From a virus (taxonomy: Duplodnaviria; Caudoviricetes), in IMG/VR virus record IMGVR_UViG_3300020045_017512, positions 1 to 38,538 of that record: a stretch of DNA of 38,538 bases, one strand, 5' to 3'. Shown one piece after another: positions 225 through 38,209 of this stretch (within the stretch, counting starts at the first letter, position 1; every line of letters begins with the position of its first letter). The notes beneath the pieces are model-generated. The model was not told the DNA's origin. It saw only the letters and a list, made by a program, of their open reading frames with translations, and searched no databases. The translations under genes were made by a program, and so were the position numbers.

Positions 225-284
225 CTTTATTTAAATTAAAATATAAAAAGTGACTTTTTAGAGAGAAGTCTAACTCTTTTATAT

Positions 285-575
285 TTAATCTTCTATATAA
301 CTATTTTTTTTAATATGTTCACAAAGAGAGTTCATTGGAATATTAAGACGAAAATTAAGTTTAGATTTTTTTATATCTTTTATAAGATCTACACTTAGAG
401 TATGTAATTTAAAATTAAAAAGAATTTGAAAAAATAATTGAATCTCTTGAAAATAATGATCTCTATAAATTTCTTTAATAATTGTTTTTCAATTTTTTTT
501 AATATCTTTTTCGATCTTTTCAAATTGTCTAATAACATATTGTAATGTTCAATAGTCTTTAGGTAATTTTAACAT
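285..575 (-). CDS. Hypothetical protein (96 aa)
   Basis: Code-25 ORF MLKLPKDYGTLQYV..., preceded by the recurrent leader and class-1 promoter motif. Confidence 0.7.
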
Positions 576-693
576 AATATAATTAGCTCTTTCAGCTATA
601 TTCGATTAAAATATAAAGTATAAGAAAACTAATCGTTTAAATTTTTCTTATATAATAATTTTATTTAATTATTTCTTTTTTTAGGTTTCAGTA

Positions 694-1644: not shown

Positions 1645-1839
1645 AATCTTTTTTAAATTAAAATATAAAGTTTTAAGTAATTATAGAGAAGTTATTATCG
1701 AATAATTTATTACTTATATTATTGTATTAACTTTCTATAATATAATTTTATTTAATTATTTCTTTTTTTAGATCTTATAGTAAAATATGAATTTATAATA
1801 AAAAAGATCACATTTTAAGTGATCTTTAATATTTATTTT
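1645..1839 (-). promoter_or_regulatory. Duplicated intergenic cassette (terminator + class-1 promoter + leader hairpin); second copy at about 37767-37962
   Basis: About 195 nt near-identical between the two loci, containing the AAAGATCAC/GTGATCTTT hairpin, the AAAAAAAGAAATAATTAAATAAAATTATA motif and the TTTATATTTTAATTTAAA leader. Confidence 0.85.
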
Positions 1840-2087: not shown

Positions 2088-2145
2088 ATTATTTTAAATT
2101 AAAATATAAATTGACTTTTTTGAAGAGAAGTCTAACTCTTAATAA

Positions 2146-3288: not shown

Positions 3289-3370
3289 ATATAGATTAAA
3301 TTTAAAATATAAATTAACTTTTTAGTAGAGAAGTTTAACTCTATTATAATTTTATTTAATTATTTCTTTT

Positions 3371-5231: not shown

Positions 5232-5939
5232 TTATACTATAGTAATTTTTCAACTAAATGATTCTGAGAAAGTAACAATTACATCATGATCATCTTGAAT
5301 TTCAATTTGAGCATCTACAACTATATTATCAGTTCATTTAATTTGTACTACTGGAGAAGTAATTCAATGAGTAGCAGCACTAATAGTTACAGTAGTTTGA
5401 GAAACTACTGTTTCAACATATTTAACTGTAGCTCAAGCTGTTCACCCTACTGCAGTAATAGATCAACTAGTACCATTATATTTAAAAATATATAGATTAC
5501 TAGAATCGTGTGCTGGATATATAAAATTTCATTGTGAAGCAGCATCAAAAGTTCTAATTAAAGTAAGAAGATGTGTAGTTGTACTCATAGCATAAAATCC
5601 ATTTTCAGATGTAGTAGTTTGATTTGCTACATATACTACTTGTCAATCTGCTACAGCAACTCATCTAATAGTTCATCAAGCTGATGTAAAAGTAGATAAA
5701 TCTAAATTTCAATCTGTAATATGTGTTACAGGTCAAAGAAATCATCTATCTAAAGAAGTAACTAATTCATCAACAGCAAAGTTTTCATTAGCTAAAACTA
5801 AACCAGGATGAAATGTAGCTCAATTTCAAACAAGAGATCAAACTGCAGCAGAACCAGGTCCAGCAAATCAATCTAGAATAAGATTTTTAATCTTAACTCA
5901 ACCTTGAAAGACGATTCAAGTAAAAAACTTTTTTAACAT
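5232..5939 (-). CDS. Tail fibre/structural protein (235 aa)
   Basis: Last gene of the tail module; contains VYVANQTTTSENGFY (similar to the VLVKNQT.ASENGIY fibre motif); shares a domain with the 22600-24705 gene. Confidence 0.7.
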
Positions 5940-16665: not shown

Positions 16666-16741
16666 TGGTCAAAGTAGAAAGAGTTGCACTTTCGTTCTCC
16701 AATTCCCAAAATTGGCGGGTTAACTACTACCCTATACTCTG
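16666..16741 (-). tRNA. tRNA-Pro(UGG)
   Basis: Cloverleaf CAGAGTA...CCAAT-TT-TGG-GA-ATTGG...TACTTTG-A-CCA; atypical T-loop TGCAACT. Confidence 0.85.
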
Positions 16742-16742
16742 T

Positions 16743-16817
16743 TGGTCCTTACAAAAAGAATTGAACTTTCGCTACTAGAGTGACAGTCTAGCGTACTAAC
16801 CACTATACGATGTAAGG
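16743..16817 (-). tRNA. tRNA-Asp(GUC)
   Basis: CTAGA-CT-GTC-AC-TCTAG anticodon arm, TTCAATT T-loop, encoded CCA. Confidence 0.88.
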
Positions 16818-16820
16818 AAA

Positions 16821-16894
16821 TGGTTGCAGATGTGAGAGTCGAACTCACTACTCAAGCTTATGAGGCTTATATGTTACCGTTACACTAATCTGCG
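16821..16894 (-). tRNA. tRNA-Met(CAU), initiator-like
   Basis: TAAGC-CT-CAT-AA-GCTTG anticodon arm, C1:A72 mismatch, encoded CCA. Confidence 0.88.
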
Positions 16895-17008
16895 ATATTA
16901 GATATTCTAAAAAAGAATATCTTTACTGTTTTACTATTTCAAATAAAACTTCTCTTGTTCTATAAGATAAAACTTATAGAATCTCAGCTAATTCTAAGTT
17001 TAGCAACT

Positions 17009-17084
17009 TGGAGCTATCTTTCAGAATCGAACTGAAAACCTTCTGTTTACAAGACAGATGCTCTGCCAATTGAGCTAAGATAGC
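17009..17084 (-). tRNA. tRNA-Thr(UGU)
   Basis: Canonical cloverleaf GCTATCT...TCTGT-CT-TGT-AA-ACAGA...AGATAGC-T-CCA. Confidence 0.93.
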
Positions 17085-19252: not shown

Positions 19253-19480
19253 TTAAAATATGAAAATCTAAATGAAACTTTTTAATTTAAAAGAATAATT
19301 ACTATTAAAGAAGAAAATAAATAAATCATATATATGATTATAAAAAGATTTAAAAAAAATGAAAGATTATATTTTTCTATTATAATTTATATATATTGAA
19401 AAACGAGACAAAACACGAACTAAATCTTTTATTTTAAATTGATAAATAAGATATTTAATTTATAATATAATCAAAATTCT
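19253..19480. repeat. Dispersed non-coding repeat of about 230 nt; second copy at about 33298-33520
   Basis: Shared blocks TTTAATTTAAAAGAATAATTACTATTAAAGAAGAAAATAAATAAA, TATATTTTTCTATTATAATTTATATATATTGAAAA and AAACACGAAC. Confidence 0.9.
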
Positions 19481-22503: not shown

Positions 22504-22599
22504 ATTTGTTTTTATTTATAAGATATTTAAACTAGGTTTTATAGTAAGAAGAGACGAAAACTATTAGATTTTCATCTCTTTATTTACTATTATTTTATG

Positions 22600-24705
22600 T
22601 TAAAGTTGAGTTATAGTTGAAGCTCAATCATCTAGAATAACATTATAACTTATTGTAAACTCTGTAGTAGATGAAAAAGAAGTATTTGAATTCATATTTA
22701 ATTGAATACTTGATCACGTATTTGTAATACTAAAATTATCACTTAATGTTCAAGCTGTTACTATTGTTGTTTCAGCTGTACTTACTTCATTACTTGCAGA
22801 AGTTACAGTTCAAGCTTTATTTATAGCACTAAATTTATATAATCATGTATGAGCTTGAAAATCTGTTCAATCAGTACATTTAATTGTATAATCAATAGAT
22901 CATCCTAACATAGTTGATACTGGAACAGTTATATCTAAGAATCAAGTAACTGTATTATCTACTAAAGTTTTCTTTCAAGAGATTCTCTTAGTTTCAAAGA
23001 AATTAGAATTTCGACTTCTTACCCAAGAATTAGTAGCAATACAAGTATATGTATGATTTCAATCTACTATAATAGTTCATTTAATTCAAGTTGAAGTAGG
23101 TGTAGCAGGAGCAGTTCATACTAATCAATTTAAAGTAATAGAAGTATTAGATGTATTTCAAAGTATAATTTCATTATCTCAAGTTACTACAGCTCAATCT
23201 CAGATTGCAATACTATTTGAAAAATTTCAAGTAGCTCAAGCATTATTTCAAATAAATGTATTATTATGACCTGACCAAACTAAATTTCAAGCGTAAGCTC
23301 AAATTAAAGTATTTCAATATCAAGTTGTAAGATATTGTGCAACAGATGTTCAAATTAAAGTATTATAAGTACCTGTAGAAATATCATCTCAAAGAGTATC
23401 TCAAAGTAATATATTTCAAATTCTACTATTTTTTCATCTTCCGATTCTAACTGTATTAAAGTATCAATCTAATGAAAAAGTTTTAATTCCTCAAATAGTT
23501 TGATTTGTATCTGTTGTTACCATATTAACTGGAGCTCAACCTCATACTATAGATAGATTTCAAATTGTTCAAGTATATTTAAATATATATAATGTAGATG
23601 AATCATGTGCTGGATAAACAAACGTTCACATTCAAGCAGCATCAAATCATCTTATAAATGTTAATAAATGAGTAGTTGGAGACATAACATAAAATCCATT
23701 TTCAGATGTAGTAGTTTGATTTGCTACATATACTAAAGCATAATCAGAAACAGCAATTCATCTAATAGTTTGTCAAGTTCAAAATGTAGCTAAATTTAAA
23801 TTAGTATCTGTTATATGAGGAATTCATACAAATCATTTATCTAAAATAGTAACTACTTCATCTACAGGAAAATTAGGATTAGCTAAAACTACTGCAGGTT
23901 TATTTTCAGGTCATACTCATACTAAAGATCATACATTAGCAGATCCAGGTCATTGAAATTGTGTTAAAGTAAAATTTTCTGTTGATGTAGGAACAACTGA
24001 TACTGGAACAGGAATTAAAGTTCTAACTGGATTAGCTCCTCAAAACTGAAATTCATATACTGGAAAGATAGCTCAAGTTCAAAGTACATTAGCATAATAT
24101 TTAATTACTAATCTATCTGTAGATAAAAAAGTTCAATCATTTACCATACAAGATGCAAGAAATTGTTCATATCAAGTACTTTCAACTTGTGGTGTTACAC
24201 TTGAAGTACAAATTAACGTTTCAGTTCAAATATTATCTCTTTTATATATTTCAAAATAGAATTCAGCAAATCTTCAAGGAGATCAACTTATTTTTTTAAT
24301 ATTTCATAAAGTAGTTAGTGTAACAATTCAAGGATTTCAAATAAGTATATTTGAATCACTAATTAAAGATCAAACTAGTTGATTACTTCATATAATTTCT
24401 CCAGTTGAAACATCAACAGGAATAGTATTATAATCAATACTATCAATATCTGTAACTAATTTAGTATATCAGAAATCTCAACTACTTGTAGTTGAATATA
24501 AAACTATATTAGAAGACATACTAGAAATATCTACTTTTTCATCTAATAAAATATTAGTTTCATCTTTTGTATAAGTAGTATCTTGATTAGCTTTTCAAGA
24601 AAGAATAGTATCTAAACTTACTCCTTCATCATTTGTAATCTCTACTGTTTTATTATTTACTTCATCTAAATTATTAGATAAAGGATTAAATTTAAATTTA
24701 GACAT
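22600..24705 (-). CDS. Multi-domain fibre protein in the head module (701 aa)
   Basis: Fully translated: FNPLSNNLD, KANQDTTYTKDET, VANQTTTSENGFY, TNQTIGGIKTFS, NTLIG/NSIAIG beta-roll repeats and PATPTSTGIKG...YTCIATNSWVR. Confidence 0.8.
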
Positions 24706-25399: not shown

Positions 25400-25472
25400 A
25401 ATATAAATAAATTAGTTATAAATTAAAGTATAATTTACATTTACTTTATAGTTTTTATTATATACAAAAAAA

Positions 25473-25531: not shown

Positions 25532-26662
25532 TTATATAGCAAGATCAGTTATCATTACAGCAGTTTCAGCATTTTTAAACTCAAGAGTTTTTTCTCAAAT
25601 AATTCTTCTTGCGTAATAATCTCAACCTGGAAGAGTAGCATCTTCATCTGTAAAAGGTCTAAGATCCTTAATTGAAAGTTTAGAACTATCAATTATAATA
25701 ACCTTATCTTTTGGAAAGTTTCTATCAGATACAAGAGTTAATAGATTTCCAAGATCACCTCTATATTCAGATATAAATACTCATCTTGTTCTCTCTGATT
25801 GTGAAGCATTTACTTCAGCAACTGAAAACCCAGTTCAAGCAACTTTTCTTAATTGATCAGGATGTCCAATAACCATATCTAGATTAGTAGCACCATTTGC
25901 ATTTGCAGTAGATAATGCAGTATTTAAAAATGATCAACTAATTGCATTTCAAGTAGCAGAAAGTTTATTTCAAGTAGCTTTATTTAAAAAGTATAGAATT
26001 CAACCAAATGTTCCATTTTCTGTAGCACTTCTTGCAACTCTCTTACCATATATTAAAGCTCTTACCATTTCGTATGCGATTTCAAGTAAACCATTCTTAA
26101 CTTGGTATCCAATAGCATCATTTAATCCATATATTTTAATAGCCTGTGCAGTTTTAGAAACTTTAGCAGTATAATCAAATATTTGTGTATAGTTAAAGTT
26201 CATACTAGGTTCTCTTCCATCAGAAGCAGAAGCATCAGTACCTTCCTTTTTAGGTGAACTTACTAATTTTACTAGTGAAGCAGTAGCTAAGTTTTCATCA
26301 ACTGAATCATCTCAATATACACTTACAGTTATATCTGTTCCATCAACTATACTTAAAACTTTTACAGTTAAAGTAGAAGAAGCACCAGTAGGTTTATCAA
26401 ATGTAAGGATTGTATTTACAGTTAATCCTGCAGTACTTACTAGAGTCATTACTCCAGAAGCAGCAACATAATCAGCATCAAGTGTCCATGATTTTGGAGA
26501 AACAATATCTTCCATCCATTCATGTTTAGTAGCAGTAGCTCTTGTTCCATCAACTTTAATTAGTTTACTAAGTACAGGAGAACTTTTTGTAACAGTTGTA
26601 AATATTTCATTTACATCTCTTACTTGATTTTGATAATCATAACTCATTTCTTTATCGTTCAT
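25532..26662 (-). CDS. Major capsid protein, DUF5309/SU10-like (376 aa)
   Basis: Joins two track ORFs through TGA; ATATKHEWMED, NYTQIFDYTAKVSKTAQAI, GDYYARRIIGEKTLEFKN. Confidence 0.92.
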
Positions 26663-26696
26663 AATTTGTGTTATTTTTAATAATAAATTTTTTAGA

Positions 26697-27281
26697 TTAT
26701 TTTATTCTAGGAGCATACTTTAACATTCAATCAATATCTCAAGCAGCTTTAGCTTTTTCATAATCTGATACATTTAGTTTTCTTCCTTCTTCCGTTGGAT
26801 TATTACTAAAGTCTGGTTTTTTTAGAGTCTCACCTAGTGTTTTATAGAAGTTAACTTTCTTTTCTAATGATAAATCACTTAATATTGATTCATATTTAGA
26901 TTTTATATCTGCTGATATAGTAGATTCAAGTTGTTCTAATTCACTTTTTAGACTATTTTCTTTTTGTATTTCATAAGCATCATATAAATCAGCTTTAACT
27001 TTAAGTTGAGTAATTAAATCTTCTTTTGACTTGATAACATCTAAATGTTGTCATTTCTCAAGTTTCTTTTTTTCCTCAATAGCTAATTCAGCAGCTTCAT
27101 ACTTTGCTATTTTATCATTTAATTCTTTAGTTCTTTGTCTTTCTTGAGTTAAAGCAATACTTAAATCACCTTTCTTTTTAGCTTCATCAGAAATTTTACT
27201 TTCATCTGTTACGATAGTAGTATCTCAAGCAACTTGTGTTTCCTTTACAGGATCTACAATGACATTTTCTTTTTCATCCAT
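26697..27281 (-). CDS. Capsid scaffolding protein (194 aa)
   Basis: Charged coiled-coil directly upstream of the capsid gene; ends YEKAKAAGDIDGMLKYAP. Confidence 0.82.
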
Positions 27282-27408
27282 TTTAACGTAAATGTTACGA
27301 AGTAAATAATTTTTACCATTATAAGTTAACGAGCTATAACGATCTCGAATTTAATATTTTTATTTCTTTATCAATCCCTCCACGGCTTTTAATAAATAGT
27401 GACAAATA

Positions 27409-27582
27409 TTAAATAACTCAAAATAATTTTAATATTCAACAAGTTCAAGCTAAAGTATAAAGTAAAATATTACTATATACAAAAAGTTTTACATATCATG
27501 AAGAATCTAATCTATCATAAGTATTAACTACTCATCATTTAATATTTTCATACATTTTTGTAATACTAATTTCTCTTGCCAT
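27409..27582 (-). CDS. Small membrane protein (57 aa)
   Basis: Hydrophobic C-terminus; class-2 promoter at 27642-27651. Confidence 0.55.
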
Positions 27583-27682
27583 TTAGTTGTAATTAAAAGA
27601 TTTAGAGATGTTAAATATATTACTATATTTCTACATATTTTTATTATATACAATAAGTAGAAATATAGTAATTTTTCTTACT

Positions 27683-29263
27683 TTAACTAACTATATCTGA
27701 ATAATTCATACTTTCTGACATATTATATTCTCAAGTTGTCATTGATCATAAAGTTCACTCTATATTCATTTCTTCTTGATCTATTACTGGAAGATTTTTT
27801 TTAATATTATCTTTAGCAATTTCTAATTCAATATCATCATCAGTTTTTTCACTATCTACTTTTATTTGTGCTTCAGCTTTAGCATTTGCTTTAGCTAATT
27901 CACTTTTTCGTAATTGTTCTAAATCTTTTTGTTTATCTAATTCAATTTGTAACTCTTCTTCAACTAATTCTTCATCAGATAGTTTTAAATATCTTTTTAA
28001 TGCTGTTTTTCTTGAGATCAATCTCATTTTTCAATATGTCATAAATACTTCTTCAGCTAATACTTTATCAGATTTAACTATAATATCCTCCCAAACATAT
28101 AATTTATTGATACTTCAGTTTTCATTTTCTATTATATCTAAAAGTTGTTCTAATACTTCGTCAAATAATTCTCTTATTCAAGTTATTGTTTTTACAAAAT
28201 TTCAATGTAACATAGCTCTTGAATCCTCTCATATAGATCATACTCTTTCATTTCAAGCAAGAAAATCTAATGGAATTCAAGTGATTGAACTAATTTCTTC
28301 TAATTGATGTAATCTTTGACTAACTGCATCTATTATTAAAGGATTAACATTATTTATAAATTCAATACTTGATTGATCATTACCTGTAATTATTCTTCAA
28401 ATTGAACTTAATGATATTTTCTCTCATTCTTCTTTTATTTTTAGTAATTTTAATGGAAGATCAATATTTTTTAATAATAGTAAAGATTCAATATGTTGTA
28501 AAAACTGTGTTTCAAACATTACTTCTTTTCTATCAATTGAATATACTAAATCTTTAATTTTTTCAATTAAAGATCTTTCAGGATATAACTTACTTTCTCT
28601 TATAATAAAGAATGTTTGAGATAATCAAGTATCTACTATAGGTTGTAATCAATCAGTTTGTACTAAAGTATTTAATGGAACTTCAGTAGCATTTTCTAAA
28701 GCATTAAATTCTCACATATTTCTTCAAATATGTTTAGATTGAATTTCAACTCTAAATAGTTTATTCTCAATTATTGATCATTTATATGATCTTTGTAAAA
28801 AATATTCTTCAATTCATCCATTTTCATCAAATCTTTCATAAAAACTTAATACATTATACTTTCAATCTCTTTCATAAAAATTATGAGCTGGAAGATAATT
28901 TACTTTAATTTTTCAATTGATTCTTTCAAGATCAAATATAGCAAATCATAATGTTATATAATCTCTTACTAACTTCTTAGTTGGAAAGTATGTATCTATT
29001 CAAGGATCTCATACATACTTTGCTATTGTTTCTGATACCATTGTAAATACTCAACTTCATACATTTAAAAGTTGTGCTTTAGTAAATGTATCACTTTCAT
29101 ATCTATCATTTCAAGGTATTATATCAAGTCAATCTTCCTTAAAAAATTTATTTCTTATATACAAAAAATTAGAATTCTTTGTATCATGTAAGTATTCTCA
29201 AGTTATTAGTTCATTCAATCTTGTTTGATATGCTACTTTAGCTTGATCTTCTCTTAATATCAT
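27683..29263 (-). CDS. Portal protein, SPP1/A118-like (526 aa)
   Basis: Downstream of TerL; TGIPLDFL and LISRKTALKRY; includes track ORF 27755-28027 in frame. Confidence 0.88.
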
Positions 29264-29315
29264 ATTTTATTTAATTTAATACTAAATATATATCTTTATT
29301 ATATACAGATTTTAT

Positions 29316-30959
29316 TTAACAGTTAAAAGATCTTGACTGTTTATTCATATATAAACAAATAGCTTCTGCTATTACTAAATCATCAAATTTTCCAGATAAA
29401 GCATTAGTTGATCCACTATCATCATAATAATAATTTACAAAATCATCTTTTTCTCTTTTATCTAGAATATCAAATTTATTTTCTCTAATAGCTTTTTCTA
29501 AATTTCAAATAATTAACTGTTTACTTTTTCAAGTTGTTGAAAATCAATATTTTCTTTTTGTTTTATTTGTAATTGTATCAACTTCTTTTTCTTTATATAG
29601 TAATCAATGCCAATACATTGTTTTAGCTACATCAATTGTTGAAATTCAAGTATTATTACTTTCTATTCATATTAAAATCTTTTCATATCATAGTTTATCG
29701 ACTATATAGTCAATTACTAATGCTAAAGTATCTGGTGGTATTCTACTTTGATAACATAAACATAATCTATCTTGATCATCTCTTACTACTATTGTTGAAA
29801 AATCTCATTTAGGTCATCATTTAGCAGTATCAACTCACATTGAATAATAATCTTTTCTATTTCAAGGTCTATAGATTCTCATATCTTTATATCTTGAATC
29901 AATTATATATTTTCATTCTGAAAATATCTTTTTTCAATCTATTTCTTGAATTTCTTTACTTGAAGCTTCTTCAACTTCTTTATAAGTTAAAATTTGATTA
30001 GAATCAAATACTGGATTTCAACTTCTAATATTTGGAATTAACATATAGTTTGATAAATATCAATCTTCTTCTTCCTCTCTTTTAATACTTTCTAATGATA
30101 TTTTAGTTATTCACTTTTCTTTATATTCTTTTTCTTCTTGATCTGTTAATACGTATCTATTCCAAGTTATTTTTCAATTTTCAATTACAGGTATTCTAGA
30201 ATAATACCACTTAGGATTAAATTTAACTTGTGCTTCTTGTCTAGGTACTAGTCAATCATTTCAAATTATATTTCATAAAAATATAACTTGAGCATTAGCA
30301 GTTAAAGCTCAAAATATTTCTTTTTTTAAGATATCAAAATTTCAATCAATTACATCTTTATTTCTAACTGAAGTTGTTACATCAACATCATCTAATACTA
30401 AAAAATCTGGTCTAAAAGATCATTCTTGATTCGAATAGTTAGCTCATCTTAAAGATCCTGTAATTCATAAAGATTTAACTTTAATTTTATTAGTTGTAAT
30501 AAATTCTCATAATCATTTCTGTACTATATCTTCATCTTCTAATTTTTTTCAGGTTGGAAAAAGTTTTCAAAAGTCTTCTATTAAACGTTTATTTGTTTTT
30601 AATTGTGATACAACATCTCATAATCTTTCTCTTGCTTTCGTTTCTGTAAAAGCAAAAATAATTAAATGATGTCTCTTTTTATAAACAATAGACCATATTA
30701 TAAGCATCATAGTATAATTCCGTTTTCAACTTCATCTATGACCAATAATCATACTTTTCTTTCATTTTCTCATATTTTCACACCATTCTTTATGATACGA
30801 TGAGACTTCGTCAGTTAAAATAATATTAAAATAGTATTTACAAAATGAAAAGAAAGCTTCTGAAAAATATTGCTTTCTAAATTTCTGATCTTCTACTATT
30901 CTTTTAGCTACTTCTTTCTTTTTTAAAGGATCTATAATTTGATATACTTCTCTAAACAT
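29316..30959 (-). CDS. terL: Terminase large subunit (547 aa)
   Basis: Walker A GHRGSGK, Walker B RPDFLVLDD, FLGN, nuclease MGVDTAKGG..GDFS, IESNNTG and GKFDDLVIA. Confidence 0.95.
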
Positions 30960-31669
30960 GTGTTAATTATTACGTAATAAATTTAGCGTGTTTTACGATA
31001 CACGATTAACATTTTGTTTTGTTATTTTATATTATATACGATTTTATATAAGATTGAGAAGAGAAATAGAAGAGATCTTTAATTTAAGAAATAGAAGAAT
31101 AAAACAAGAAAAATATAGAAGTATTTAAAGAAGATATTTTAAAGAAAAGAGAAAGAAATAGTAAAGTACCTTGTAGATAAGTAATAGAGTAGTAAAGAAA
31201 GAGTAATTTGACTTTTAAAAATTCTATACTTTGTTCAAGTGGATCTGAGAAATTTCTACAAAAAACTCAGTATGAACTCAAATTAACTTTTCATTTTCTT
31301 CTTATCTCATCTACTCGTCTCACTAACGTTCGACTCGAATCTCAAACTATATCTTTATAGTATATCTCTTCTTTTTCTTTGATCTTTCTTTTATATCTTT
31401 ATAGTAATCGAAGAAGTTCGAACGAAACGAAGTGTAGTGAGAACTGTATAATAGTATAAGTTTAGAAATTGTCTAGATAAAGTGTAGACTATTTACTCTT
31501 GATTAAAGTCTTAAATATGTTTTAATTTACTTTAGAATAAAAGTCTAGTGTTTATGTTATCTTTTTATTTTCTTAGTTTTCTTATAGATCTAAAAAAAAG
31601 AAATGTTTAAATAAAATTGTAATATAAAGATAATAATCTTTATAATTTATATAATAATTTATACATACT

Positions 31670-32248
31670 ATGACAAATAAAGAAAAAGAAGTAATTGATA
31701 ACTTATCTATACTTAGAGAAGAAGCTAAGAATGGTTTACTTAGAGATAAGATAGTTAAAGAAGTTAAGAATGATAATTTTATACGTGAAATTGAACCTAT
31801 TACTGAAGTTAAAAATTGAGTTGAAGTTTTATCTACTATAGATCAGAATCTTATTTCTACTGAAATAGTAGAAATTGATTGAGTTTTTTATCCAGTTTTA
31901 TTTTATAATTGAATTGTAGCTTCTACAATTAGACTTCTTGATTGAACACTATATACAAAAGAATATATTACTAAAATAGTAGAAAAACAAAAAGAATTTA
32001 AAGAAAGGTTAAAAGAAGAAATAAAAGAGTTTGAAAAAAGTTTTACTTGAGAAGCAAGAGAATATAAGAATAGATTAAATTTAGAAGTTGAATTGATTAG
32101 TAAATTATGATACTCTCAGTTTTCTGATTTAAAAAGAGATTGAGTTTTAGAAAAATATGAAGAACTTTGTAATTTTTGAGATGAATCTTTCGATGAAATT
32201 GATTCTGCTATTAACTTTATTGAAATAAATAATTTAGTTATAGTTTAA
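31670..32248 (+). CDS. Hypothetical protein (192 aa), the only plus-strand gene found
   Basis: Open in code 25, with a class-1 promoter on the plus strand at 31591-31620 and a terminator at 32268-32293. Confidence 0.85.
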
Positions 32249-32267
32249 GAAATAAAAGAGTACCTTG

Positions 32268-32293
32268 AGAGTATACAGTAATATGTATACTCT
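32268..32293 (+). terminator. Terminator of the plus-strand gene
   Basis: AGAGTATACA/TGTATACTCT stem followed by a T-run. Confidence 0.7.
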
Positions 32294-32294
32294 T

Positions 32295-32346
32295 TTTAGT
32301 AATCAAATGACAGTTATAGACATATAATTGTCATTTGATTACTAAA
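32295..32346. repeat. 52-bp near-perfect palindrome
   Basis: TTTAGTAATCAAATGACAGTTATA-GACA-TATAATTGTCATTTGATTACTAAA: 24-bp arms with one mismatch. Confidence 0.95.
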
Positions 32347-33009
32347 CGTATTCTCTATACTGTAACACAAAGTGTTTTAGTAATCTTAATAGTCTTTTAG
32401 TTTGAGATCTTTCTCTTAACATATGAAGAGAGATTTTGATCTCTTATTTCTTTCATCATTTTTCTATTTGAGACATGTGTAAAAAAATTGAGAATATAGT
32501 GATAGACTTATTTCTTCTTTTTTCTATCATTCAGTTCTCACTTCACTAACGCTTCATTCGAACTTTTTTTTTCATTCTTTCATCATTTCTTTCCTTTTTC
32601 TTCGATCTTTCTTTGATGAACTTTGTGAATCTTTTCTTCTTTCGAACATAGTGAGCAACTCGAGAGAACTTTGTGATCGAGAGTTGTTTCTTCTTTTAAT
32701 TTTTTATTCATCTTTCTTTTCTCTTTCTCTTTTTCAGAGTTTACAGTAGATAAACAAGAGATTCTTTCGGAGAACTTGAGTTCGACACCTTGAAATTTTC
32801 TTTTTTCTAGAGATGAGACAGTACTTTTAAGAGTAAGTTGATTAAATAAAAAGATATACTTTAATATATCTTTTTTTACAAGGTACTTTCCTATTTTTCT
32901 CTCTTTTTTCTTAGATTAGAAAAACTTATTTAAATGAGTTTTAACAATAGATAGTATATTTACTTATAACTAATATTAGAATAAATCAATCTCTTTAGAA
33001 TCAATTGAT

Positions 33010-33231
33010 TTATATACTTAGATCTTGTTTATAAAGAGATATACTATCTAAATACTTTTTAGATTTATAATCTGGAACATTATAATATTTTAACCAGTTA
33101 TCACTAGATACTTCATCAGCTTCTTTACGAGTTTTATAATAGTAACATTTCTTAGTTAGATTACATCGTATTTTATATAATGTACAATATTTTAATTTTA
33201 AAGTAACAGTATTAAAATCATGATTTTTCAT
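33010..33231 (-). CDS. Hypothetical protein (73 aa)
   Basis: Present in the ORF track; downstream of the 33298-33520 repeat. Confidence 0.55.
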   Translation of the reverse strand: MKNHDFNTVTLKLKYCTLYKIRCNLTKKCYYYKTRKEADEVSSDNWLKYYNVPDYKSKKYLDSISLYKQDLSI

Positions 33232-33529
33232 AATTAGTATTTATAAAATATTTAAAATTAGTAATTTATATTTAAAAGATAAATCTTAATCCATCTATTA
33301 AAATATGAAATTTAAAATGAAACTTTTAATTTAAAAGAATAATTACTATTAAAGAAGAAAATAAATAAAGTAGATATATGAATTAAATAAAATGAAAGAA
33401 AGATGAAAAATATATTTTTCTATTATAATTTATATATATTGAAAACTGAAGCGAAACACGAACAAAATCTTTTACTTTAGATTGATTATTTTAGAATTTA
33501 TTGTATAATTAGACAAAATAAAACGCTAA

Positions 33530-33820
33530 AAAAGTATAACTTGTCTTACTATTCAGTAGTTACAGAGGTTATACTTTTAGATTTTTATTCAGAATCTAGC
33601 AAAACTGATTACTCTACATAGAAAATTTACTTACGATCTCAAGAGATACATACTTAGTGAAATTAGCAAAACTATAGTGAAAGATTTTTTTAACTTAGAT
33701 AAAACCAGTAAAACTGTTGTAGAGGATTATGTTCATCAGTACAATAATCAAAACTATCAACTCGAGTGTTGTAAACAGGATGTCATCTTAGACTTGTATA
33801 CATTACTACCTGTTACATTT
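33530..33820 (-). ncRNA. Candidate structured non-coding RNA (about 290 nt)
   Basis: Lies between a class-2 promoter (33824-33833) and a terminator hairpin (33530-33578); several stems, five GTTTT linkers and no convincing ORF. Confidence 0.5.
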
Positions 33821-33948
33821 ATTTATTATATACAATAAATAGATCTAGTTCAAACAAAAAAAGAATTATACGTAATATATAATTCTTTTTAAATACTTAA
33901 CTATATAAATATAGAATAATTAAATGTGGTATTTTATATTATATACGA

Positions 33949-37766: not shown

Positions 37767-37960
37767 AATCTTTTTTTAAATTAAAATATAAAGTTTTAAG
37801 TAATTATAGAGAAGTTAGTATCGAATAATTTATTATTTATATTATTATATTAACTTTCTATAATATAATTTTATTTATTTATTCTTTTTTTTAGAAGTAT
37901 TAGTAAAATATGAATTAAGAATAAAAAAGATCACATTTTAAGTGATCTTTAATATTTATT

Positions 37961-38143
37961 TTATTTAATTATTTCTAATTCTTCTATTTTTATTCAACTA
38001 ATATCTATCATTTCAATTCAAGTATCTGTATAAATAATTCATTTAACTCTATATAGTAGAGAATCTTTATCGAATTCTATAACTGATCAAGTTAATCATT
38101 CATAGAATCAACTTATAATTTTTACTCTATTTCAATATTTCAT
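37961..38143 (-). CDS. Stand-alone KOW-motif protein (60 aa)
   Basis: MKYGNRVKIISGFYEGLTGSVIEFD; all four KOW glycines are TGA. Confidence 0.75.
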
Positions 38144-38209
38144 AGTCTTTATTTAAATTAAAATATAAAAGTGACTTTTTAGAGAGAAGTCTAACTCAAG
38201 ATAGTCTTT

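What the first reader, a model, noticed from the sequence alone, without database searches (positions are those of the whole stretch)
27317..31004. Sequence-unrelated pseudoknots of the same architecture before terL, the scaffold/capsid operon and gene 285-575
Seen on the minus strand: terL leader (30973-31004) CGUGU-AU-CGUAA-A-ACACG-CUAAAUUUA-UUACG, 13 nt before the ATG; scaffold leader (27317-27347) CGAG-AU-CGUUAUA-G-CUCG-UUAACU-UAUAAUG; and 603-652, where loop CGAUUA pairs with a downstream UAAUCG. The rare CG dinucleotides fall precisely in the pairing arms. With the four early copies this makes at least seven pseudoknotted leaders, in a genome where I saw no Shine-Dalgarno motifs before start codons. 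Inference: a structure-based, SD-independent translation initiation or regulation system, conserved in shape rather than sequence.
Basis: partly seen in the sequence, partly recalled or inferred. Interest (0 to 1): 0.8.

Follow-up and report, generated by a model that had tools for sequence, protein, structure and literature searches.

The report
Phage leader pseudoknots masking start signals
This phage has no Shine-Dalgarno motifs, and a conserved, Rfam-unmatched sequence predicted to fold into a small RNA knot sits in front of its terminase and scaffold genes, where it likely covers the U-rich signal that these phages appear to use for ribosome loading and so would limit or gate how much of those assembly proteins is made.

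Summary
The window is a circular 22.8% GC phage read in code 25 (TGA=Gly), so its host is probably Gracilibacteria or Absconditabacteria. All three stated pseudoknot pairings are present. The terL and scaffold copies are one family, not unrelated. The same knot sits at the scaffold leader in 16 of 19 SD-less relatives and in 0 of 19 other relatives. Stem 1 is 98.6% paired with 19 double changes, and stem 2 also covaries. Carriers form one capsid clade, so this is a single contrast. It is not a general SD replacement: only 11 of 54 window leaders score p<=0.1, and capsid and major-tail leaders lack it. The general start signal appears to be a UUUAU motif near -22 followed by an A-rich stretch. 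In terL and in the relatives' scaffold leaders, that motif lies inside the knot. Relatives carry further knot families at portal, tail-fibre and head-tail-adaptor leaders at about the same distance from AUG. Best reading (about 0.5): a gene-specific translational gate like T4 gene 32 or rpsO. Rival (about 0.25): a structure that itself recruits ribosomes lacking an anti-SD. Function is untested, and the host was not identified directly.

The parts
30973..31004 (-). terL leader H-type pseudoknot, CG-closed family: stem 1 5 bp, loop 1 2 nt, stem 2 5 bp, loop 3 9 nt; ends 13 nt before AUG; the UUUAU motif at -22 (30981-30977) lies at its loop 3/stem 2 junction
31031..31039 (-). GTATATAAT promoter-like motif upstream of terL (12 copies, all on the minus strand, several before late genes); promoter role inferred
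29316..30959 (-). terminase large subunit (547 aa, code 25)
   Evidence: phrog_38, E 1e-34
27317..27347 (-). scaffold leader H-type pseudoknot, same family: stem 1 4 bp, loop 1 2 nt, stem 2 7 bp, loop 3 6 nt; ends 35 nt before AUG, an outlier against 11-15 nt in code-25 relatives
27282..27316 (-). scaffold spacer with UUUAC at -25 and two possible weak A/U hairpins; resembles a second copy of the family's 3' half
   Evidence: sequence; the duplication is inferred
26697..27281 (-). putative scaffolding protein (194 aa); named from its position before the capsid gene and BLAST similarity to relatives' pre-capsid genes; no Pfam or PHROG match
26663..26696 (-). capsid leader: short, A/U-rich, UUUAU at -25, no pseudoknot
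25532..26662 (-). major capsid protein, SU10/DUF5309 type (PF17236)
603..654 (-). long hairpin whose loop can pair with downstream UUAAUCG; begins 7 nt after the early AAATAAAATTAT repeat; ends 27 nt before the ATG at 575; different architecture, no homologous leader available
   Evidence: p=0.002-0.003
285..575 (-). 96-aa gene of unknown function
252..277 (-). early AGAG-type pseudoknot copy 1, immediately 5' of a free UUUAUAUUUUAA motif
2113..2140 (-). early AGAG-type copy 2 (stem 1 extended by an A-U pair)
3316..3343 (-). early AGAG-type copy 3 (stem 1 extended by U-A; stem 2 G-C changed to A-U on both sides)
38173..38198 (-). early AGAG-type copy 4, stem 1 reduced to 3 bp (degenerate)

Best explanation
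The terL and scaffold elements are two copies of one conserved RNA pseudoknot family, shown by covariation, that likely acts as a gene-specific translational gate by pairing up the U-rich element these SD-less phages appear to use for ribosome loading. Shown: leaders of this clade lack SD and carry a UUUAU motif at -27..-17 followed by an A-rich, G-poor run. In terL and in the relatives' scaffold leaders, that motif lies in register at the loop 3/stem 2 junction, and the knot ends 11-15 nt before AUG. Inferred: the U-rich motif is the bS1/30S landing site. When folded, the knot would hide it, so initiation would need bS1-driven unfolding, as for E. coli rpsO. Inferred, weakest step: a late phage protein, most plausibly unassembled scaffold protein, stabilises the knot and makes it an operator; otherwise it is a fixed attenuator. 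The window's terL lies 3.3 kb from terS and has its own promoter-like motif. It likely gained a copy of the scaffold element, which would keep terminase low or tie it to prohead assembly. The early AGAG knots and the 603-654 element are separate; the early ones lie 5' of a free U-rich motif and more likely protect or preload the mRNA.
For: Family and structure: 16 of 19 SD-less scaffold leaders match the descriptor (1-12% of shuffles per leader) against 0 of 19 others. Stem 1: 98.6% of 74 cells paired, 19 double changes, covariation 0.664 vs 0.129, 0 of 500 shuffles. Stem 2 lower part: 85.7% paired, 3 of 5 pairs with double changes, 0.268 vs 0.132, 1 of 500. Cognate loop-to-downstream pairing beats permuted pairing, p=5e-5 for 19 rows and for 10 thinned rows. 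Four U-G pairs in stem 1 fit the mRNA strand. L261 was found with a pattern that left the loop free; its new loop sequence still pairs, 13 nt before AUG. Start signal: UUUAU starts at -27..-17 in 60 of 130 non-scaffold leaders (4 of 130 in a control window) and in 22 of 54 window leaders (2 of 54). UUUA(U/C) is at -20..-25 in 14 of 14 scaffold leaders and at -22 in terL. A model built from relatives' scaffold leaders has ordinary window leaders as its top hits, matched through its 3' half. Capsid and major-tail leaders lack the knot. Two more families occupy the same zone: portal/tail fibre (11 rows, p=5e-5) and head-tail adaptor (9 rows, p=0.03). Precedent: bS1 unfolds the rpsO knot and S15 traps it (PMC3858243); structure in the start region tunes initiation in SD-less Flavobacterium (PMC6847099).
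Against: No expression, probing or binding data. That UUUAU is an enhancer is inferred from position alone. The window's own scaffold knot ends 35 nt upstream and does not cover the UUUAC at -25. Scaffold proteins are usually abundant (recalled), which fits a fixed attenuator poorly. In the portal/tail-fibre family the paired strand is not U-rich, so it replaces the motif rather than masking it. The upper part of stem 2 has pyrimidine mismatches in 9 of 13 code-25 relatives. Model R1 scores the window's copies weakly (scaffold E=0.11, terL E=3). Nested folding gives similar openness of -26..-13 for capsid (0.51) and scaffold (0.45) leaders, although it cannot model knots. A first pair count on an alignment with stem 1 out of register gave only 70% paired, 13 of 500 shuffles. 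Knot carriers are one clade (18 of 19 rows), so the anticorrelation with SD is a single event. No homologous terL leader has the knot. No candidate binding protein was tested.
Confidence: 0.5

Rival explanations
1. Positive element: the knot itself docks on the 30S platform or on bS1 and stands in for the SD/anti-SD helix at selected genes, on ribosomes that lack a usable anti-SD.
For: The knot ends a tight 11-15 nt before AUG in 13 code-25 relatives, L261 and terL. Three sequence-distinct families end in about the same zone. The portal family has no U-rich motif, so something else must recruit ribosomes there. Two Absconditabacteria and Peribacter lack the CCUCC core (PMC10783764), and these lineages often lack bS21 (PMC9297842). 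A knot is required for S1/30S binding in tisB (PMC7708055 abstract).
Against: Capsid and major-tail genes, expected to be the most translated, lack it. Most leaders lack any knot. The window's scaffold copy is at 35 nt and code-11 copies are at 5-10 nt, so spacing is not strict. The scaffold family keeps the ordinary UUUAU motif in register inside the knot.
Confidence: 0.25
2. mRNA-stability element: a roadblock to 5'-to-3' exonuclease or a processing mark that stabilises downstream sub-messages such as scaffold-capsid.
For: Knots sit at the heads of gene blocks (scaffold-capsid, adaptor block, portal, tail fibre). The 3343 and 654 elements begin 7 nt after a repeated promoter-like motif, at a likely transcript 5' end. 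The early copies leave the U-rich motif free. Exonuclease-resistant pseudoknots exist (recalled).
Against: A roadblock need not include the start motif, yet the CG family pairs it in register. Host RNase J was not checked. This reading fits the early copies better than terL or scaffold.
Confidence: 0.15
3. Small-molecule riboswitch of preQ1-I-like size.
For: Compact H-type fold with invariant CG/CG and a conserved closing C-G next to pyrimidine mismatches, which could form a pocket.
Against: No Rfam match at E<=1 in the window apart from tRNAs and one antisense tRNA-overlap hit, and none in 7 relatives. The downstream genes are structural, not metabolic. Mismatch identities vary, and stem 2 is fully paired in 4 relatives and in both window copies.
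Confidence: 0.05
4. DNA-level palindromic operators or chance pairing in A/T-rich DNA.
For: Loose knots are common by chance (92 on the minus strand, 105 on the plus strand). Arms are short, and the CG/CG base is itself palindromic.
Against: Two separate helices covary. G-U pairs occur on the sense strand. Arm sequences differ freely between phages, which a DNA-binding site would not tolerate. This rival stays open for the 603-654 element and early copy 4, which have no outside homologues.
Confidence: 0.05

Closest known systems
T4/T2 gene 32 mRNA leader pseudoknot (autogenous translational operator; PMC3014915, passages read)
   Same: Phage mRNA leader, compact H-type knot with two stacked stems, upstream of an A/U-rich start region.
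   Different: No sequence match. The gene 32 knot lies well upstream of an SD-containing site and nucleates binding of an ssDNA-binding protein. Here the knot overlaps the putative U-rich start motif, there is no SD, the genes are morphogenetic, and no ligand is known.
E. coli rpsO (S15) operator pseudoknot (PMC3858243, abstract and one results section read)
   Same: A knot abutting the start region that must be unfolded for initiation, and that a protein could trap.
   Different: rpsO is an SD-led host ribosomal-protein leader (recalled) with a known repressor. There is no Rfam match here, and bS1 dependence is untested.
tisB standby pseudoknot (PMC7708055, abstract read)
   Same: A leader knot with a role in 30S/S1 loading; the model for the positive rival and perhaps for the early copies.
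   Different: The tisB standby site acts about 100 nt upstream of a sequestered site. Here the knot ends 11-15 nt from AUG.
P22 scaffolding-protein (gene 8) autoregulation (only the title of Wyckoff and Casjens 1985 seen in a reference list; mechanism recalled)
   Same: Control located at the scaffold gene, plausibly by unassembled scaffold protein.
   Different: No pseudoknot is known to me for P22. The proteins show no tested homology, and binding is untested here.
SD-independent initiation in Bacteroidota (PMC6847099, passages read)
   Same: No SD; adenines at -3 and -12/-13; low structure near the start favours translation.
   Different: These phages add a UUUAU peak near -22, and the reported relatives of the likely hosts have lost the anti-SD core, whereas most Bacteroidota keep it.

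Membership tests
T4/T2 gene 32 operator | H-type pseudoknot in a phage mRNA leader | tested here: met
   covariation in both stems
T4/T2 gene 32 operator | precedes an ssDNA-binding protein gene | tested here: not met
   precedes terL and the pre-capsid gene
T4/T2 gene 32 operator | the gene product binds the knot and represses translation | not testable with these tools
   needs binding and reporter assays
rpsO/S15 leader and other Rfam leaders | match to an Rfam model | tested here: not met
   no match at these sites in the window or in 7 relatives at E<=1
rpsO/S15 leader and other Rfam leaders | the knot overlaps the initiation region | tested here: met
   covers about -44..-14 including UUUAU at -22 in terL and in relatives' scaffold leaders; not met for the window's scaffold copy
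rpsO/S15 leader and other Rfam leaders | bS1-dependent unfolding on the 30S | not testable with these tools
   needs toeprinting
tisB-type standby pseudoknot | knot far upstream of a sequestered start site | tested here: not met
   ends 11-15 nt before AUG
tisB-type standby pseudoknot | knot required for S1/30S binding | not testable with these tools
   needs binding assays
preQ1-I riboswitch | Rfam match and a queuosine-pathway gene downstream | tested here: not met
genome-wide structural replacement of SD | present at most leaders, above all highly expressed genes | tested here: not met
   11 of 54 window leaders at p<=0.1; absent from capsid and major-tail leaders
genome-wide structural replacement of SD | host 16S lacks the anti-SD | tested here: inconclusive
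   no host genome reachable; published loss in two Absconditabacteria and Peribacter; Gracilibacteria did not occur in the searched files of that paper
exonuclease-resistant RNA (xrRNA) | blocks a 5'-to-3' exonuclease | not testable with these tools
   needs an in vitro decay assay or 5'-end mapping

The most novel reading that the evidence does not exclude
In phages of bacteria whose ribosomes have lost the anti-SD and bS21, several unrelated small pseudoknots have converged on one position 11-15 nt before AUG, and each docks on the open 30S platform in place of the SD/anti-SD helix: a natural, structure-based bacterial ribosome-binding site.
Probability: 0.2. Interest if true: 0.9.

Novelty: new variant of a known kind. 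Interest (0 to 1): 0.62.

Why it matters
Protein-trapped leader pseudoknots are known from few cases; a 2010 review said T4 gene 32 might be the only viral autoregulatory example (PMC3014915). Here two or three uncatalogued families sit on morphogenesis genes of one phage clade whose likely hosts lack SD-led initiation. How such bacteria choose and tune start sites is open. This work gives a candidate start motif (UUUAU near -22) and natural 30-nt elements that pair with it, so a handful of point mutants can tell masking from recruiting. If the knots recruit ribosomes, they would be a natural structure-based ribosome-binding site in bacteria.

Tried and rejected
Genome-wide SD replacement: rejected. 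'Sequence-unrelated' for terL vs scaffold: rejected. AUG-UAA start-stop reading of the stem 2 end: only 4 relatives have AUG there and others have UUG, UCG or ACG, so it was rejected. An outer helix enclosing the knot (7 bp possible in terL): permutation p=0.12 for all rows and 0.027 for code-25 rows, not adopted. Conservation at homologous terL leaders: none of the descriptor hits precedes a terL, including 0 of 5 full terL leaders in the clade (L050, L132, L045, L201, L202). Early AGAG motif outside the window: 0 matches in viral contigs; three distant phosphoesterase loci show no such leader by eye. Single-protein locus searches found 0 loci for terL and 1 for capsid. The portal alignment gave no new phages. 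The scaffold protein had no homologue except itself. Host anti-SD: no host genome could be reached, and the 16S cells in the PMC9297842 supplement were cut before the 3' end. No RNA holder was listed. Nested folding z-scores were unremarkable, -0.19 to -0.72. The sigma-70 scan found 57 sites against 62 expected. Rfam: nothing at these sites. Literature: pseudoknot + Gracilibacteria gave 0 papers; searches listed no description of these elements by title or abstract start. Three motif strings and two taxon names were absent from 6 searched supplement files of PMC10690425, but files 1, 2 and 4 could not be searched, so an unnamed candidate there is not excluded. The P22 paper was not held.
Full report
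Setting. The window is one circular phage record with a 121-nt terminal repeat and about 23% GC. Under table 11 no long ORFs exist; under table 25 they tile the minus strand (coding density 0.04 vs 0.73). Code 25 is the code of Gracilibacteria and Absconditabacteria (PMC6851277 and PMC9297842, passages), so the host is inferred, not shown. TGA could formally be another residue; homologues are stored with W at these positions, and this does not affect the leaders. Gene names: terL, portal, terS, head-tail adaptor and major tail by PHROGs; capsid by PF17236; 'scaffold' by position and by similarity to relatives' pre-capsid genes only.

Observation. The three stated pairings are in the sequence. 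Within the window alone they are suggestive only. A loose H-type scan finds 92 non-overlapping knots on the minus strand and 105 on the plus strand; terL ranks 2nd and scaffold 21st on the minus strand. Local shuffles give p=0.012 (terL), 0.047 (scaffold), 0.002 (603-652), and 0.13, 0.025, 0.08, 0.55 for the early copies. Over 54 leaders, 11 reach p<=0.1 and 6 reach p<=0.05, against about 5.4 and 2.7 expected.

Relatives. Alignments of terL and capsid homologues brought in loci from viral, metagenome and genome collections. I took 38 distinct pre-capsid leaders. I dropped near-duplicates (L046, L123-L125, L139, L128, L134, L135, L052, L156, L157, L143, L159, L205, L208), fragments without a leader, and rows with a doubtful pre-capsid gene call. 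A descriptor (CG-opened, CG-closed stem 1; loop pairing downstream) matches 16 of 19 leaders from SD-less loci and 0 of 19 others, 14 of which show an SD. I had seen these leaders before writing the descriptor and grouping them, so this test is not blind. The misses are L122 (a mismatch in stem 1), L132 and L026. On a quick capsid tree the carriers form one clade (SH-aLRT 99; 18 of 19 rows, including the window), so the contrast with SD-led phages is one evolutionary event. The clade includes four code-11 loci, two of them binned in Bacteroidota MAGs.

Covariation. On a MAFFT alignment of 19 rows, stem 1 has 98.6% of 74 cells paired, 19 double changes and a score of 0.664 vs 0.129, with 0 of 500 shuffles as high and slid controls at or below 0.076. 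Pair 3 shows four Watson-Crick types and pair 4 includes four U-G. The lower five pairs of stem 2 on 14 rows are 85.7% paired, score 0.268 vs 0.132, 1 of 500. A first count of both stems on that 14-row alignment gave only 70% and 13 of 500, because stem 1 was out of register in 9 rows. Cognate loops pair better than permuted ones (p=5e-5 for 19 rows and for 10 thinned rows). These shuffles do not correct for relatedness. The best independent check is L261: a pattern that fixed stem 1 and the 3' strand but not the loop found it, and its different loop still forms five pairs, 13 nt before AUG and ahead of a capsid gene. Of the 37 pattern hits, 4 were scaffold leaders (3 already known); the rest were unrelated contexts. 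Against: the top of stem 2 holds pyrimidine mismatches in 9 of 13 code-25 relatives, and a covariance model from 12 relatives scores the window's copies weakly (E=0.11 and 3). By shared features (CG/CG base, AU loop 1, C-G closure of stem 2, following UAA in terL; terL's stem 1 and loop 3 nearly match L045) the two window copies belong to this family.

The general start signal. 0 of 54 window leaders, 5 of 144 near-clade leaders and 0 of 63 code-11 clade leaders have an SD, against 88 of 179 in the outgroup. Instead there is a U peak at about -26..-17 and an A-rich, G-poor run to AUG. UUUAU begins at -27..-17 in 60 of 130 non-scaffold leaders (4 of 130 in a control window) and in 22 of 54 window leaders (2 of 54). 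In 14 of 14 scaffold leaders examined UUUA(U/C) is at -20..-25. In the 13 of these with the knot it lies at the loop 3/stem 2 junction, as it does in terL at -22. The model's best window hits are ordinary leaders matched through this 3' half. Published data show that two Absconditabacteria (2% and 7% SD genes) and Peribacter lack the CCUCC core (PMC10783764, section 21 and supplement rows); Gracilibacteria did not occur in the files searched.

Distribution. In the close code-25 relatives the strict motif sits at a leader only before the scaffold gene; across all 38 code-25 loci sense and antisense counts are equal (48 vs 47), so the background is chance. No terL leader of a relative has it. 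In five code-25 loci terL overlaps the preceding gene by 26-37 nt, whereas in the window terL lies 3.3 kb from terS behind a GTATATAAT motif. Capsid leaders and 8 of 8 major-tail leaders lack it. Relatives carry two more families that are absent from the window. A GGUUG/CAACC knot precedes portal and a tail-fibre gene (11 rows, cognate pairing p=5e-5). A CGCUAC...CG element precedes the head-tail adaptor and shares the 3' half of the scaffold motif (9 rows, p=0.03). This supports 'shape rather than sequence' at the level of the clade.

Mechanism. Shown: the fold by covariation, its position, the absence of SD, the UUUAU peak and its overlap with the knot. Inferred: UUUAU is the loading signal, the folded knot hides it, and bS1 unfolds it as for rpsO (PMC3858243, abstract and section 9). 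Most weakly inferred: a late protein traps it, with scaffold the first candidate by analogy to P22 (title only; mechanism recalled). I put masking or gating at 0.5, about half of that for a protein-controlled operator. Recruitment gets 0.25 because of the tight 11-15 nt spacing and because the portal family has no U-rich motif to mask (tisB precedent, abstract only). Stability gets 0.15, a riboswitch 0.05 and DNA/chance 0.05. The window's scaffold copy at 35 nt is an outlier for both main models; the spacer holds a second UUUAC at -25 and may be a duplicated 3' half (inference).

Other copies. The four early copies are repeats of one element. They show a G-C to A-U double change in stem 2 and an A-U/U-A swap extending stem 1, while copy 4 has lost a pair. 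They end 25-29 nt before AUG, just 5' of a free UUUAUAUUUUAA, so they do not mask it. The 654-603 element has a different geometry and begins 7 nt after the repeat AAATAAAATTAT, as does copy 3. No homologous leaders were found for either, so they remain plausible but unproven.

Novelty. No Rfam family matches. Paper searches (listings and abstract starts) showed no description. Passages of PMC5737381 and 6 of 9 supplement files of PMC10690425 gave nothing; the unread files may bear on this. It works most like the T4 gene 32 and rpsO operators but is a member of neither: a new variant of a known kind. An earlier AI note on another phage reports knots about 12 nt before SD-less starts; it is a lead, not evidence.

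Noticed in passing
L043:7455-7510, L044:2463-2516, L041:1882-1934, L050:3773-3828; second copies L043:19378-19432, L050:15590-15652: GGUUG/CAACC pseudoknot family before portal and a tail-fibre gene in relatives, with strong loop-to-downstream covariation; absent from the window; no Rfam match in the loci scanned.
   Followed up: partly
L137:3670-3727, L042:6860-6911, L049:4530-4581, L123:9880-9928: CGCUAC...CG element before the head-tail adaptor gene, sharing the scaffold motif's 3' half; its stem looks non-canonical.
   Followed up: partly
L041:3345-3400, L043:8905-8960, L044:3910-3965, L049:1935-1957, L137:540-597: One or two conserved hairpins upstream of the scaffold knot in relatives, one with a GUAGCG(A/G) loop; absent from the window.
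   Followed up: no
window 31039, 29306, 27651, 25465, 17341, 15476, 13071, 9884 and four more (minus strand): GTATATAAT occurs 12 times, all on the minus strand, several just upstream of late genes; likely a promoter motif.
   Followed up: partly
window 666, 1753, 3357, 3980, 21767, 37876 (minus strand): Repeated AAATAAAATTAT motif, most copies preceded by an A-tract, before early genes; long hairpins start about 7 nt after it in several leaders (1644, 3867, 37766, 575).
   Followed up: partly
window 25407-25448 and about 22535-22573 (minus strand): Two further leaders with knot-like pairing (p=0.047 and 0.002 in local shuffles); the second may be only a strong hairpin.
   Followed up: no
window 31300-33900: Region between terS and terL with CpG-rich inverted repeats (about 31316-31337, 31409-31429, 32270-32345), low coding density, a GC-skew turn and one 192-aa plus-strand gene; possible replication origin.
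   Followed up: no
window 16666-17084 (minus strand): Four tRNA genes (Pro-TGG, Asp, Met, Thr) upstream of the head-tail adaptor gene; CC and GG dinucleotides are strongly depleted genome-wide (0.35, 0.64).
   Followed up: no
window 1649-1839 and 37772-37962; 19264-19466 and 33308-33509; 5429-5887 and 23526-23978: Long duplicated segments (94%, about 80%, about 73% identity): two intergenic promoter/leader blocks and a repeated tail-protein domain.
   Followed up: no
L246:3001-3028, L248:1414-1441, L252:3001-3028 (minus strand); L267:3001-3029: Unrelated code-11 phages carry a similar CGGN-loop-NCCG stem plus U-rich tail 24-26 nt before an ATG; chance or a wider family, not resolved.
   Followed up: no
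L201, L202: Code-11, SD-less phage contigs with 43-45% capsid identity to this code-25 phage are binned in Bacteroidota MAGs; either a host jump between SD-less phyla or mis-binning.
   Followed up: no
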